Part shown: positions 2,327 through 18,439 of the stretch, in pieces | How positions within the stretch are numbered: position 1 is the stretch's first letter | How the letters are laid out: each line of letters starts with the position of its first letter | DNA from: a virus | DNA: 64,000 nt | IMG/VR virus record: IMGVR_UViG_3300034069_002149 | Coordinates: 27,650 to 91,649 of that record | Reading direction: 5' to 3' (one strand) | Made by a program: the position numbers and the translations under genes | Notes under the pieces: generated by a model | Told to the model about the DNA's origin: nothing | The model's database searches: none | What the model saw: only the letters and a program-made list of their open reading frames with translations

Positions 2327-2390
2327 AGGGCAATCTTTCATGTGAGAGTAGGGGAGAAGGTGGGCGGGTGCTCGACCCGCCCGGTTGGTG

Positions 2391-3428
2391 TCAGGCTGCC
2401 ATTTCCGCGACTTCTGCGGTTTCCTGCTTGGCCTCGACCTCGATCTCAAAATCACCGTCTTCGTCAATTTCCAGGTCACCGGCTGGCTGCTTCGCAATCA
2501 TGAAGTCAACCGCCTTCTGCGCTTCACTCGCGGCCTTGAAGAAGAACTTCTTGTCGTTCTTCATCGCCTTGAGCCAGTTCTTCAGGTAGATCGCATGGTC
2601 TTCGCGGACGGTCGCGGAAACCCCGAGATAGCTGCACAGGAAGGCGGAGCCAAGCTCGGCAATCAATTCCTCGTAGGCGTAATCCTCGCTGCCGAAGCGT
2701 CCCGTCTGGTCCCGGTTCATCCGATCTTCCTTGCCCGTCCAGTGGATGTATTCGTGAAGCTGTGTGCTGTGGAAGTGCTCGATGGCGGTGCCGTGCGCCG
2801 TGTCGATGAACTGCTCAGGTGTCGGCATCACGATCTTGTCGTAGGTCGGGCTATAGTAGGCGCTGTCGGAGCCTTCCGTGTAGTTCGCCAGCATGTGGCG
2901 CAGGAACTCGGTAACGCGCGGGCTGCGCTCGACCAGCTTGGGAACCTCGACCACCTTCGGCTGATAACCCTCGACCTGCTCGGCGTTGAACACCGTGTAG
3001 GCTCTCATCATGAAGCCGCCTTTGTCGTCCGGATTGTTCTCGTCCTTCTCGAACCGCTTGGCGTACACGATGGTCGTGCCCTTCTCACCCTTGCGGACAG
3101 ACATCGTGCCCTGCTTGACGACCTTGCCCTCTTCGTCTCGTTCCTCGCCGCCCTTCTTCTTCCACTGGTCGAAGGTGGCCCATTCGCCGCTGCTGTACCC
3201 GGCACTCATCAGGATCACGACGTTGATGCCGCGATAAGGCTTCCGGCTCACAACGTTGATCGGGGTTCCGCCATACAGGCCGGTCGTCTTCCAGGGACGC
3301 TTCCACGGATCGGTGCAGGTCTCCAGCATCTCGGCCAGCTTGTCGGTGACCGACTGGTAAACGTCGAACTTCGGCTTGGTGGAGGTGGACTTGCGGGTCG
3401 TCTTCTTCGTGGTCGTGCGCTTGGTCAT
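2391..3428 (-). CDS. ardC: ArdC-family antirestriction/ssDNA-binding protein (N-terminal ssDNA-binding plus zincin-like domain)
   Basis: PWKRPW, P-N..S.KPYRGIN...L, W.TF.QW, VRKGEKG, YTVFNAEQVEG, HE..HWTG...R..R, YA.EEL.AELGSAFLC, Y...WL..M..D..FFFKAAS.AQKAVDF. ATG at 3428 lies behind the leader motif. Confidence 0.9.
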   Translation of the reverse strand: MTKRTTTKKTTRKSTSTKPKFDVYQSVTDKLAEMLETCTDPWKRPWKTTGLYGGTPINVVSRKPYRGINVVILMSAGYSSGEWATFDQWKKKGGEERDEEGKVVKQGTMSVRKGEKGTTIVYAKRFEKDENNPDDKGGFMMRAYTVFNAEQVEGYQPKVVEVPKLVERSPRVTEFLRHMLANYTEGSDSAYYSPTYDKIVMPTPEQFIDTAHGTAIEHFHSTQLHEYIHWTGKEDRMNRDQTGRFGSEDYAYEELIAELGSAFLCSYLGVSATVREDHAIYLKNWLKAMKNDKKFFFKAASEAQKAVDFMIAKQPAGDLEIDEDGDFEIEVEAKQETAEVAEMAA

Positions 3429-3443
3429 TTGCCCTGCCCTATC

Positions 3444-3670
3444 TGTGAGAGTTTGCGGCGGGTGCCGCGTGTTCCGCGCTGTGTGCCTAAGCACAAAAAC
3501 ACTATGCATCATTTAGCGGGTGCATGCACCATTTATTTTGCCTTGGGATGAAAAAAGTTTGGCGTGCCTGTGCTGGCAAGCAGCCATGAAAAAAGCCACC
3601 ACAAGCCCGTATAAGGCTGCTGTGGTGGCTTCTGAGGATTGGCGGGTACATGGGCACCCGCCGCAGGCTT
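3444..3670 (-). repeat. Terminator-promoter-operator-leader cassette, copy A
   Basis: Hairpin GGCGGGTACATGGGCACCCGCC 3641-3662, palindrome GGTGCATGCACC 3519-3530, -10-like CATAGT, leader hairpins and CTCTCACA 3444-3451. Near-identical blocks at 5787 and 10302. Confidence 0.85.
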
Positions 3671-3697
3671 TAAATCAAGCGGACAGGCCGCATCGGC

Positions 3698-17071: not shown

Positions 17072-17127
17072 GTTCAAACCTGTGAGAGATGGTAGGGCAA
17101 GATTTGGCTTGCCCTACCTGTTGAGTG

Positions 17128-18147
17128 CTAGAAACGGGAGATATCAACCCAACCAACCGGAATTTCGACATCGCGGTCAATCAACCGCATTGCTTCAGAC
17201 AAACCCTTCTTTTCAGAAACTTGGCACTGTCTGCCCATGGCAATGAGGCGGTAGGAGTATTCCTTTTCCATACGTACCGCAATTTGCTTCCAACCAAAGT
17301 TGGCGGTAGTCAAACCACTTCGCATGTTGTGCTCATGGTTCAATTCCTTGCAGGTAGCGCCAATCTCACGGGTGAACAGAAGGAAGTTCTGGTAAGCATC
17401 ACTGTCAATGCTTGGGTGTCTTGCAAGCTTCTTTTGCGCCTTGGCAAGTTTGGCAGCCATTTCCCTGATTTCCTTGTCACGCTTCTTTTGCGCCTTTTCC
17501 TCTTCCTTGCGCTGGCGTGCCTCTTCAGCCTCTTTCAGCTTGCGCTGGCGTTCCTCTTCCTTGCGCTGGCGTTCCGCCTCAATCCGCGCTTTCTCTTCCT
17601 CACTCATGCCAGTGTTGGCAACCGGGCGGGTGCTGGTCTGACGGGTGCCAGAGACCACAGAAACGTTGCGCGCACCCTTCACAGGGTAAGCAGTGAACAG
17701 AAGTTCTCCAGACGTGGCGCAGCGGATAGCAACCGGAACCTTGGGACCTGTCTTTTCATTGGCCCTATCATGAGCTTCCTTGCTTGCCTCCCAACCCCTA
17801 AAGATGCGGCCTACGTCCAGTTCCATACCGTCAAACACATAGGCAAGCTTGACCATGTGGTGTGCATAGGGTGCCATGGGGTCAACCGTCTGGCTTTCCT
17901 CAGTCTGGACGGTTTCCTCTTCCTTCTCAAAGTCTGGAGCACCCTCACCCATCATGCTTGCGGTTGCGTGCTCTTCTGAGAACGTCTGATCAGGTGCGCT
18001 ATCCAGGGAACGGATAACAGGCTTGTCACTAGCGTCCAAAGCAATCTTGGTAACCGTCTGGTCACTGGCATCAAGCACAATGCGCTTGGACAGGTTCAGA
18101 GCAATCTTGGTGGACTTCTTAGCGTTGGAAAGCTTGGTCATTTGCAT
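17128..18147 (-). CDS. Hypothetical protein with charged coiled-coil (EEERQRK repeats)
   Basis: Long ORF behind a doubled leader motif (18155, 18163). Tandem TTGCGCTGGCGT repeats 17505-17575. Confidence 0.75.
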   Translation of the reverse strand: MQMTKLSNAKKSTKIALNLSKRIVLDASDQTVTKIALDASDKPVIRSLDSAPDQTFSEEHATASMMGEGAPDFEKEEETVQTEESQTVDPMAPYAHHMVKLAYVFDGMELDVGRIFRGWEASKEAHDRANEKTGPKVPVAIRCATSGELLFTAYPVKGARNVSVVSGTRQTSTRPVANTGMSEEEKARIEAERQRKEEERQRKLKEAEEARQRKEEEKAQKKRDKEIREMAAKLAKAQKKLARHPSIDSDAYQNFLLFTREIGATCKELNHEHNMRSGLTTANFGWKQIAVRMEKEYSYRLIAMGRQCQVSEKKGLSEAMRLIDRDVEIPVGWVDISRF

Positions 18148-18184
18148 GTTTCCTTGTGAGAGTGTGAGAGAGTGAAGACTTGAT

Positions 18185-18415
18185 TTAGATAACCGCACCG
18201 TACTGCACTGAATAAACGCGCTTGGTTCCGTTATCCCATGCAACGTGCATTTCAGAACCAAAGGCTGTATCAGTGATTTCACCCGTTAACCCGTCAAACC
18301 GGATTAGAAGGGTACCTTTCAACGGCAGAAGCGTTGAACTCTCTTCTAGTGTGATTGTGTGCCGTAAAGCATCAACCGCACATGGAAGCCTTTTAGCCAA
18401 CCTAGAAGCACGCAT
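18185..18415 (-). CDS. Hypothetical protein (SH3-like WDNG motif region)
   Basis: ATG behind motif 18431 plus SD AGGGA. Confidence 0.55.
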   Translation of the reverse strand: MRASRLAKRLPCAVDALRHTITLEESSTLLPLKGTLLIRFDGLTGEITDTAFGSEMHVAWDNGTKRVYSVQYGAVI

Positions 18416-18439
18416 TACCGTGTTTCCCTATGTGAGAGA

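What the first reader, a model, noticed from the sequence alone, without database searches (positions are those of the whole stretch)
2341..18438. CTCTCACA sense-strand leader motif before most genes of the early arm (24 exact copies)
Seen: TGTGAGAG on the plus strand at 2341, 3444, 4494, 4913, 5516, 5787, 8388, 8927, 9405, 10027, 10302, 10854, 11122, 12302, 12585, 13248, 16200, 16503, 16511, 17009, 17081, 18155, 18163, 18431, plus CGTGAGAG at 4156. Nearly all are intergenic, immediately 5' of the SD of a minus-strand gene. Chance expectation is under 1. The one plus-strand copy I found (30912) also precedes a gene behind a promoter, so the motif follows the coding strand. Inference: an RNA-level element (translation enhancer, processing site or regulator/sRNA target) and/or micro-homology for gene-by-gene shuffling. 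A mundane alternative is a lac-like TCACACAGG unstructured enhancer.
Basis: partly seen in the sequence, partly recalled or inferred. Interest (0 to 1): 0.75.

Follow-up and report, generated by a model that had tools for sequence, protein, structure and literature searches.

The report
Start-linked leader tag on phage genes
About 25 small non-structural genes of an uncultured 143-kb phage each carry the exact 8-base tag CTCTCACA just in front of their ribosome-binding site; it is a new version of the still unexplained "start-associated sequences" of phages, and in one relative it also marks where genes were swapped.

Summary
TGTGAGAG occurs 24 times on the + strand of window 2341-18438. Shuffles of the whole window, both strands, give a mean of 2.5.

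Main features:
- **Sense orientation.** Read on the coding strand, CTCTCACA ends 9-17 nt before the start codon. The Shine-Dalgarno follows it within 0-4 nt.
- **Distribution.** 21 of 33 genes of the leftward arm that have an upstream spacer carry it, against 3 of 71 elsewhere in the 143-kb genome (Fisher 9e-11).
- **All-or-none.** There are 33 exact copies against 3.9 expected, but one-mismatch variants are not enriched (81 against 97).
- **Not a promoter.** It sits in 24-37-nt spacers with unconserved flanks. The arm's likely promoters are a separate 87-nt repeat with a palindromic operator.
- **Relative.** The only near relative I could fetch (L217) keeps the tag before non-orthologous genes. 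A gene replacement there is bounded by two tag copies.

The closest known things are the start-associated sequences (SAS) of actinobacteriophages, whose function is still unknown. This tag differs in lying 5' of a variable SD and containing no G.

The best reading is an mRNA leader element read sequence-specifically at translation initiation, which also serves as a crossover point. The mechanism is unproven. This scan has noted SAS-like motifs on other DNA before. I class it as a new variant of a known kind, of moderate interest.

The parts
2341..2348 (-). CTCTCACA copy, ends 14 nt before ATG of gene 1748-2326
3444..3451 (-). Copy 15 nt before ATG of the ArdC-like gene 2391-3428; hairpin GCGGCacccGCCGC directly 5'
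4156..4163 (-). One-mismatch variant CTCTCACG, 17 nt before ATG of gene 3698-4138
4494..4501 (-). Copy 15 nt before ATG of gene 4176-4478; starts 1 nt after the upstream gene's stop codon
4913..4920 (-). Copy 17 nt before ATG of gene 4503-4895
5516..5523 (-). Copy 17 nt before ATG of gene 5190-5498; right-hand boundary of the cassette swapped relative to L217
5787..5794 (-). Copy 14 nt before ATG of gene 5533-5772, preceded by the hairpin; left-hand boundary of the swapped cassette
8388..8395 (-). Copy 16 nt before ATG of the UvrD-type helicase gene 6803-8371
8927..8934 (-). Copy 14 nt before ATG of gene 8562-8912
9405..9412 (-). Copy 17 nt before ATG of gene 9136-9387
10027..10034 (-). Copy 14 nt before ATG of gene 9722-10012
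10302..10309 (-). Copy 15 nt before ATG of gene 10050-10286, preceded by the hairpin
10854..10861 (-). Copy 15 nt before ATG of gene 10530-10838
11122..11129 (-). Copy 17 nt before ATG of gene 10871-11104
12302..12309 (-). Copy 16 nt before ATG of gene 11806-12285
12585..12592 (-). Copy 17 nt before ATG of gene 12319-12567
13248..13255 (-). Copy 17 nt before ATG of gene 12895-13230
16200..16207 (-). Copy 12 nt before ATG of gene 15879-16187
16503..16518 (-). Tandem double copy CTCTCACACTCTCACA, 14 nt before ATG of gene 16258-16488; 30-nt leader identical to the one at 18150-18179
17009..17088 (-). Two copies (17009-17016, 17081-17088) in a stretch with uncertain small ORFs; no clear SD; assignment open
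18155..18170 (-). Tandem double copy, 13 nt before ATG of gene 17128-18141
18431..18438 (-). Copy 15 nt before ATG of ORF 18185-18415
30912..30919 (+). Sense copy on the + strand, 26 nt before ATG of gene 30946-31197 (atypical spacing)
3476..3562 (-). 87-nt intergenic repeat (other copies at 5813-5899 and 10333-10419) holding the palindrome GGTGCATGCACC. Inferred promoter/operator of a transcription unit, followed by two 5'-UTR hairpins and then the tag
   Evidence: promoter role inferred

Best explanation
CTCTCACA is a start-associated leader element. It is transcribed as CUCUCACA in the short untranslated spacer before each independently initiated gene of the non-structural (probably early) arm. 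It lies 0-4 nt 5' of a GGGA/AGGA-type Shine-Dalgarno. I infer that a sequence-specific partner reads it on the mRNA. That partner would be a phage or host protein or RNA, not the 16S 3' tail. It would set or switch translation initiation of about 25 accessory genes as one group. Because the same 8-20 nt stands at every gene boundary, it also serves as the crossover point at which gene cassettes are exchanged between related phages. Shown: position, orientation, module restriction, all-or-none exactness, its presence before non-orthologous genes in a relative, and one cassette swap bounded by it.
For: Enrichment is 26 against 2.5 expected in the window, and 33 against 3.9 in the genome. All start-linked copies are in the sense orientation on both DNA strands, which rules out a replication-strand signal. 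The motif end lies 9-17 nt from the start (mean 14.8, sd 2.0), whereas the upstream gene end lies 1-342 nt from the motif. In eight gaps over 130 nt the motif still abuts the SD. It is present in 21 of 33 arm genes with spacers against 3 of 71 elsewhere (p = 9e-11). None of 108 genes with upstream spacers under 20 nt (mostly translationally coupled) has it. Exact copies are 8-fold enriched while one-mismatch variants are at background. In the canonical slot there are 24 exact, 4 one-off and 5 two-off copies. Flanks carry under 0.65 bit per position. Together these argue for selection on the exact word rather than decay of duplicated DNA. Motif genes use a distinct SD class: canonical GGAG/GAGG occurs in 4 of 24 against 93 of 188 other genes. 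23 of 24 start with ATG. L217, at 84% nt identity, has 3 exact copies in 1.75 kb, two of them before genes absent from this genome. The replaced segment runs from one motif copy to the next. The same properties define the SAS of cluster K and cluster EF phages (PMC3203893, PMC7302621).
Against: There are no expression data. No candidate RNA-binding protein was found: Pfam scans of about 150 predicted proteins gave no CsrA, Hfq, S1, KH or cold-shock domain. No convincing antisense RNA partner was found. The only 11-nt complement, at genome 5335, lies inside a well-supported coding frame. The motif cannot pair with the generic 16S 3' tail (by inspection). A DNA-binding reader would give the same orientation bias. 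Conservation in relatives rests on a single 1.75-kb contig. The gain in predicted SD accessibility is small.
Confidence: 0.45

Rival explanations
1. It is a DNA-level site: an asymmetric binding site for a phage regulator, like the stoperators of mycobacteriophage L5, where a monomeric repressor blocks elongation at many co-oriented intergenic sites. Alternatively it could be an activator site. Either would silence or switch the arm in the prophage or plasmid state.
For: The motif is asymmetric, intergenic, co-oriented with transcription and present in about 30 copies, as stoperators are (PMC9283540; T1/Stevie repeats, PMC4319613). IMG/VR classes the record as a provirus. It encodes DNA binders of unknown target: a Trans_reg_C winged-helix protein at genome 2282-2923 lying among three motif-bearing genes, plus HTH_3 and HTH_20 proteins.
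Against: The motif keeps a fixed distance to the start codon rather than simply being somewhere between genes. It is confined to one module instead of spread over the genome. The arm's promoter regions carry a different, palindromic operator (GGTGCATGCACC, 5 copies), so no motif copy doubles as the promoter operator as in L5. An 8-11-bp core is short for a monomeric site (13 bp in L5).
Confidence: 0.2
2. There is no dedicated reader. The motif is part of a portable, generically good ribosome-binding cassette: a G-free unstructured stretch, a GGGA/AGGA SD, an A-rich spacer and ATG, resembling the lacZ leader TCACACAGGAAACAGCTATG. It spreads and is homogenised because new genes are acquired by recombination at this cassette.
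For: The native 8-mer gives somewhat higher predicted SD-to-AUG accessibility than random 8-mers (mean percentile 0.65, Wilcoxon p = 0.003). Identical 30-nt leaders stand before unrelated genes at 16498-16527 and 18150-18179. One cassette swap is bounded by the motif. The resemblance to the lac leader is from my own knowledge.
Against: Any G-poor 8-mer would serve for accessibility, yet the word is exact in 24 of 28 slots within one mismatch, and near-variants are not enriched. The flanks and the SD next to it vary freely, which duplication or gene conversion of a cassette would not produce.
Confidence: 0.2
3. It is a minimal promoter for a phage-directed RNA polymerase, or an endonucleolytic processing site that yields monocistronic mRNAs with defined 5' ends.
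For: Distant phages that share the helicase carry a 20-nt promoter-like motif before nearly every gene, ending 6-8 nt before the ATG (L056, L071, L084). So per-gene transcription signals exist in this broad group. The motif is single-stranded and sequence-defined, as a nuclease site could be.
Against: Nothing is conserved from -25 to -4. Spacers as short as 24 nt leave no room for other promoter elements. Promoter-proximal genes have the motif about 50 nt downstream of the inferred promoter repeat, so two promoters would be redundant. No RNA polymerase or sigma factor was found by Pfam. The motif does not resemble known RNase E or RNase III sites (own knowledge).
Confidence: 0.1

Closest known systems
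[quoted passage not shown]
   Same: It is a short asymmetric word in 10-20 or more copies and in one orientation. It lies at a fixed short distance before start codons and is confined to the non-structural half. It prefers ATG starts. It is conserved across relatives even before different gene families. A subset carries an extra upstream element (here a GC hairpin).
   Different: SAS (GGGATAGGAGCCC, GGGAAAGGACCCC) contain the Shine-Dalgarno and can extend pairing with 16S rRNA. Here the invariant word has no G, lies 0-4 nt 5' of a variable SD and cannot pair with the 16S tail. It is 8 nt rather than 13. It is exact in almost all copies. The phage is a 143-kb, 58% GC genome of unknown host.
PeSL (promoter-early stem-loop) cassettes of T4-type phages (PMC2839356, PMC4122927)
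   Same: It is a repeated regulatory sequence between small non-essential genes of a plastic region. Insertions and replacements between close relatives are bounded by copies of it.
   Different: PeSLs are 50-70-bp units with a sigma-70 promoter and a terminator hairpin. The 8-mer here has neither and sits in 24-37-nt spacers. Only one swap could be examined.
Stoperators of cluster A mycobacteriophages (L5 gp71; PMC9283540) and the T1/Stevie 22-bp repeats (PMC4319613)
   Same: They are asymmetric and intergenic, have many copies and are oriented with transcription.
   Different: Stoperators are spread over the whole genome and are not tied to a fixed distance from start codons. One of them is the promoter operator. 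Here the promoters carry a different palindrome.
Translation enhancers 5' of the SD (T7 gene 10 epsilon, S1-binding A/U-rich or CA-rich leaders; own knowledge)
   Same: It is an unstructured element just upstream of the SD that could raise initiation.
   Different: Those are single-gene or degenerate elements. This one is an exact word shared by about 25 genes of one module.

Membership tests
Start-associated sequences (SAS) | Short asymmetric repeat in many copies, far above chance | tested here: met
   33 copies against 3.9 expected
Start-associated sequences (SAS) | Fixed short distance upstream of predicted start codons, in one orientation | tested here: met
   The motif ends 9-17 nt before the start (sd 2.0). 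All start-linked copies are in the sense orientation on either DNA strand
Start-associated sequences (SAS) | Restricted to the non-structural part of the genome | tested here: met
   21 of 33 arm genes with spacers against 3 of 71 elsewhere; none in the structural region
Start-associated sequences (SAS) | The repeat occupies the RBS position and contains the SD core | tested here: not met
   The core has no G. The SD follows 0-4 nt later and varies (GGGA, AGGA, GAGG and others)
Start-associated sequences (SAS) | Conserved in related phages, also before different gene families | tested here: met
   L217 has 3 exact copies, two of them before genes absent here. This rests on only one relative
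Start-associated sequences (SAS) | A subset carries an upstream extended element (ESAS, inverted repeat) | tested here: inconclusive
   The hairpin GCGGC-N4-5-GCCGC lies directly 5' of 6 copies and of one in L217. The stem is invariant, so there is no covariation test
Stoperators (cluster A mycobacteriophages) | Sites distributed over the whole genome, including structural operons, with one overlapping the early promoter | tested here: not met
   The motif is confined to one arm plus three genes at genome 1445-3435. The promoter repeats hold a different palindrome
Stoperators (cluster A mycobacteriophages) | Bound by the immunity repressor | not testable with these tools
   Needs EMSA or ChIP. 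Candidate DNA binders exist
PeSL cassettes | The unit contains a sigma-70 early promoter and a terminator stem-loop | tested here: not met
   No promoter or terminator matches were found at motif sites, and the spacers are 24-37 nt
PeSL cassettes | Indels and replacements between close relatives are bounded by copies | tested here: inconclusive
   One replacement is bounded by two copies. One insertion (6045-6716) is not. n = 2 events
Phage RNA-polymerase promoter | About 17-20 nt of conserved sequence upstream of the start site, and a phage RNAP gene | tested here: not met
   Flanks carry under 0.65 bit. No RNAP or sigma domain was found in about 150 proteins scanned. Some small or structural proteins were not scanned
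CsrA/RsmA binding site | CANGGA core overlapping the SD, usually in a hairpin loop and in two copies | tested here: not met
   By inspection, only about 8 of 24 leaders contain CANGGA. This does not explain the invariant CTCTC half
16S-complementary enhancer (epsilon-like or extended SD) | Complementarity to 16S rRNA | tested here: inconclusive
   There is no complementarity to the generic 3' tail CCUCCUUUCU (inspection, own knowledge). The host and its full 16S are unknown, so internal sites could not be tested

The most novel reading that the evidence does not exclude
The tag is the address label of a phage-specific translation programme. A dedicated phage-encoded reader (a protein or small RNA not yet recognisable by sequence) binds CUCUCACA on about 25 mRNA leaders. 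It switches the whole accessory-gene set on or off as a unit. The same label makes any gene that recombines in behind it instantly part of that programme. This would give 'start-associated sequences' a mechanism.
Probability: 0.25. Interest if true: 0.75.

Novelty: new variant of a known kind. Interest (0 to 1): 0.5.

Why it matters
Start-associated sequences have been catalogued since 2011 without a mechanism. This example separates the conserved word from the Shine-Dalgarno, which removes the confounding 'it is just a strong RBS' reading. It is exact in nearly every copy, which makes clean mutagenesis possible. It also offers a direct case of cassette exchange at the word. If a specific reader exists, it would be a module-wide translational switch in phages and a handle for expressing or silencing blocks of unknown early genes. 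If not, it documents how a portable ribosome-binding cassette organises gene flux in a plastic phage region.

Tried and rejected
**Near relatives**
- Profile and single-protein scans of viral, genome and metagenome collections returned only relatives at 44% identity or below, plus one short near relative, L217.

**DNA pattern scans**
- I scanned for motif+SD, hairpin+motif and the promoter palindrome. They gave only chance single hits.
- Megablast of the arm and of the structural region against GenBank phages found no match.

**Readings rejected**
- Chi/KOPS-like strand signal: the motif follows the coding strand on both DNA strands.
- SD-sequestering hairpin (CUCU with GGGG/AGGG): it appears in only a few leaders and is very weak.
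- CsrA/RsmA site: CANGGA occurs in only about a third of leaders.
- Antisense partner RNA: a scan for TGTGRGRG found only one 11-nt complement, inside a coding frame, and one wobble match in the non-coding GT-rich region.
- Known RNA families: Rfam gave nothing.
- L226, a locus with four CTCTCACA copies: this is a CT-rich composition effect, not a leader.

**Host**
- Inference from a GMC oxidoreductase failed. There is no tRNA in the window.
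Full report
**Observation.** TGTGAGAG occurs 24 times on the + strand between 2341 and 18438, at exactly the listed coordinates. The sense form CTCTCACA occurs twice on the + strand, at 27594 and 30912. Dinucleotide shuffles of the window give 2.5 ± 1.7 matches and never more than 7. The window is bases 27650-91649 of a 143,333-bp IMG/VR record classed as a provirus and about 91% complete. Genome-wide there are 33 copies against 3.9 expected from composition.

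**Anatomy.** On the coding (minus) strand each copy reads CTCTCACA. A purine-rich Shine-Dalgarno follows within 0-4 nt, then a start codon 9-17 nt after the motif (mean 14.8, sd 2.0).

- The distance from the end of the upstream gene to the motif ranges from 1 to 342 nt. In the eight gaps longer than 130 nt the motif still abuts the SD. So it is tied to starts, not to stops or to gaps.
- I used a self-trained ORF caller, which is crude and so gives approximate gene counts. By those calls, 21 of 33 genes of the leftward arm with a spacer of at least 20 nt carry the exact word. Elsewhere the figure is 3 of 71 (Fisher p = 9e-11). None of 108 genes with spacers under 20 nt (mostly translationally coupled) carries it.
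- The three outside copies precede + strand genes at genome 1445, 3133 and 3435. The motif therefore follows the coding strand, not a DNA strand.
- The arm encodes mostly small ORFans, plus an ArdC-like protein, a UvrD-type helicase and a DUF4942 protein. This is the profile of a plastic early or accessory region.

**Constraint.**
- Exact copies are about 8-fold enriched, but one-mismatch variants are at background (81 against 97 expected).
- In the canonical slot there are 24 exact, 4 one-off and 5 two-off matches among 212 genes.
- Positions flanking the word carry at most 0.65 bit. There is a weak ACA preference 5' and the SD and an A-rich spacer 3'.
- A word that is all-or-none exact with freely varying neighbours is not what decaying duplications give. 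It argues for sequence-specific recognition.
- Motif genes also use a distinct SD class. GGGA or AGGA occurs in 16 of 24. Canonical GGAG/GAGG/GGAGG occurs in 4 of 24 against 93 of 188 other genes. 23 of 24 start with ATG.

**Not a promoter.**
- Several spacers are only 24-37 nt, and the motif can begin 1 nt after the preceding stop codon.
- Nothing upstream of -4 is conserved.
- Consensus scans place no sigma-70 promoter or terminator at motif sites.
- The arm has a separate 87-nt intergenic repeat (3476-3562, 5813-5899, 10333-10419). It contains the palindrome GGTGCATGCACC, which has five copies in all. Two short hairpins and then the motif follow it. I read this repeat as a promoter and operator plus 5' UTR, which is an inference. 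On that reading, first genes of transcription units carry the motif about 50 nt downstream of their promoter, in the same place as internal genes do.
- Pfam scans of about 150 predicted proteins found no RNA polymerase or sigma factor, and no CsrA, Hfq, S1 or KH protein. They did find three DNA binders of unknown target: Trans_reg_C, HTH_3 and HTH_20.
- Rfam has nothing here.

**RNA folding.**
- Replacing the word by random 8-mers lowers the predicted probability that the SD-to-AUG stretch is unpaired. The effect is modest (mean percentile of the native word 0.65; Wilcoxon p = 0.003).
- This fits a G-free spacer but cannot explain exactness.
- A CUCU:GGGG mini-hairpin forms in only a few leaders and is weak.

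**Relatives.** Close relatives exist, with helicase identity of 65-93% on contigs of up to 209 kb. None of those distant phages uses CTCTCACA.

One near relative slipped through: L217, a 1,751-nt metagenome contig that is 84% identical in shared DNA.
- It keeps the promoter repeat, the hairpin and three exact motif copies, plus a tandem CTCTCACG variant. All lie just 5' of SDs.
- Between the copy that corresponds to window 5787 and the one that corresponds to 5516, the window has one 79-aa gene. L217 has two unrelated genes, each with its own motif.
- Homology ends 2 nt after the first copy and resumes 2 nt before the second. This is a cassette replacement bounded by the word.
- A second difference is the 223-aa gene at 6045-6716, which has its own promoter-like and terminator-like signals and is absent from L217. 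Its ends do not fall at a motif.
- Within the genome, identical 30-nt leaders precede unrelated genes at 16498-16527 and 18150-18179.

**Comparison with known elements.**
- *SAS.* The start-associated sequences of cluster K mycobacteriophages have the same defining behaviour. They are 13-bp asymmetric words in 11-19 copies and one orientation, a few nt before starts. They occur only in the non-structural half, prefer ATG and are conserved before different gene families. About half have an upstream extension (PMC3203893). Similar repeats are reported in Microbacterium cluster EF phages (PMC7302621) and in the Felix O1-like phage Mordin (PMC4611695). A 2025 survey of 188 genomes still calls their role unverified (PMC12699233).
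- *Difference from SAS.* SAS contain the SD. Here the invariant word lies upstream of a variable SD, has no G and cannot pair with the 16S 3' tail.
- *Stoperators.* They share asymmetry and orientation. But they are genome-wide and are not locked to start codons (PMC9283540).
- *PeSL cassettes.* They share the role as recombination boundaries. But they are promoter-terminator units (PMC2839356).
- *This scan.* It has logged many SAS-like motifs in other genomes. Following two of those notes I looked for a complementary partner. I found only an 11-nt complement inside a coding frame at genome 5335, which I treat as chance.

**Verdict.** The most likely reading, at about 45%, is an mRNA leader element read sequence-specifically at translation initiation of one gene module, which also acts as the crossover site for cassette exchange. 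The rivals are:
- a DNA-level regulator site (about 20%);
- a portable generic RBS cassette with no dedicated reader (about 20%);
- a minimal promoter or processing site (about 10%).

None of these can be settled without 5'-end mapping, reporter mutagenesis and binding assays.

Noticed in passing
window 3476-3562, 5813-5899, 10333-10419; palindrome also at 8444-8459 and 18714-18729: An 87-nt intergenic repeat holds the perfect palindrome GGTGCATGCACC just upstream of a TGnCATTAT-like -10. Two 5'-UTR hairpins follow (GTGCttagGCAC and GCGGCacccGCCGC). It is conserved in L217. It is probably the repressor-controlled promoters of the arm.
   Followed up: partly
window 14000-15450: A 1.4-kb non-coding stretch is strongly G/T-rich on the minus strand (GC skew -0.20, lower GC). 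It has iteron-like repeats of TATGGGTGCTG. It is a candidate replication origin or long non-coding RNA.
   Followed up: no
window 6045-6803: A 223-aa gene has its own terminator-like hairpin (6796-6773) and a sigma-70-like promoter (6786-6758). It lacks the leader tag and is absent from the near relative L217. It looks like a moron-type insertion.
   Followed up: partly
L056, L071, L084, L044, L046, L200, L223 (AT-rich phages with a 37-41% identical helicase): Almost every gene is preceded by a 20-nt lineage-specific motif, for example TTAAAAACTAaAaTATAATA. It ends 6-8 nt before the ATG with no SD. These look like per-gene promoters for leaderless or near-leaderless mRNAs, with 14-39 copies per 20 kb.
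   Followed up: partly
L010 (IMGVR_UViG_3300014969_000044): Sixteen copies of aAACAGAGAGGATGAaa lie directly before start codons. This is another SAS-like conserved RBS motif, in a phage with a 42% identical helicase.
   Followed up: no
genome 5335-5345 (outside the window; L265:5335-5345): TGTGAGAGTGT is the exact 11-nt complement of the extended leader consensus ACACTCTCACA. It lies on the sense strand inside a 149-aa gene, 260 nt upstream of two small structured RNAs noted earlier. It is probably chance.
   Followed up: partly
window 3412-3428, 5482-5498, 18125-18141 and others: Several motif genes begin ATGACCAAG (Met-Thr-Lys). The ArdC-like gene and gene 17128-18141 share a Lys/Thr-rich N-terminus (repeat family D9).
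   Followed up: no
genome 1462-2262, 11096-12175 and neighbours (outside the window): The phage encodes DpdA, a PTPS/QueD-like enzyme, a PAPS-reductase-like protein, dCTP deaminases and a dUTPase. This points to 7-deazaguanine-type DNA modification.
   Followed up: no
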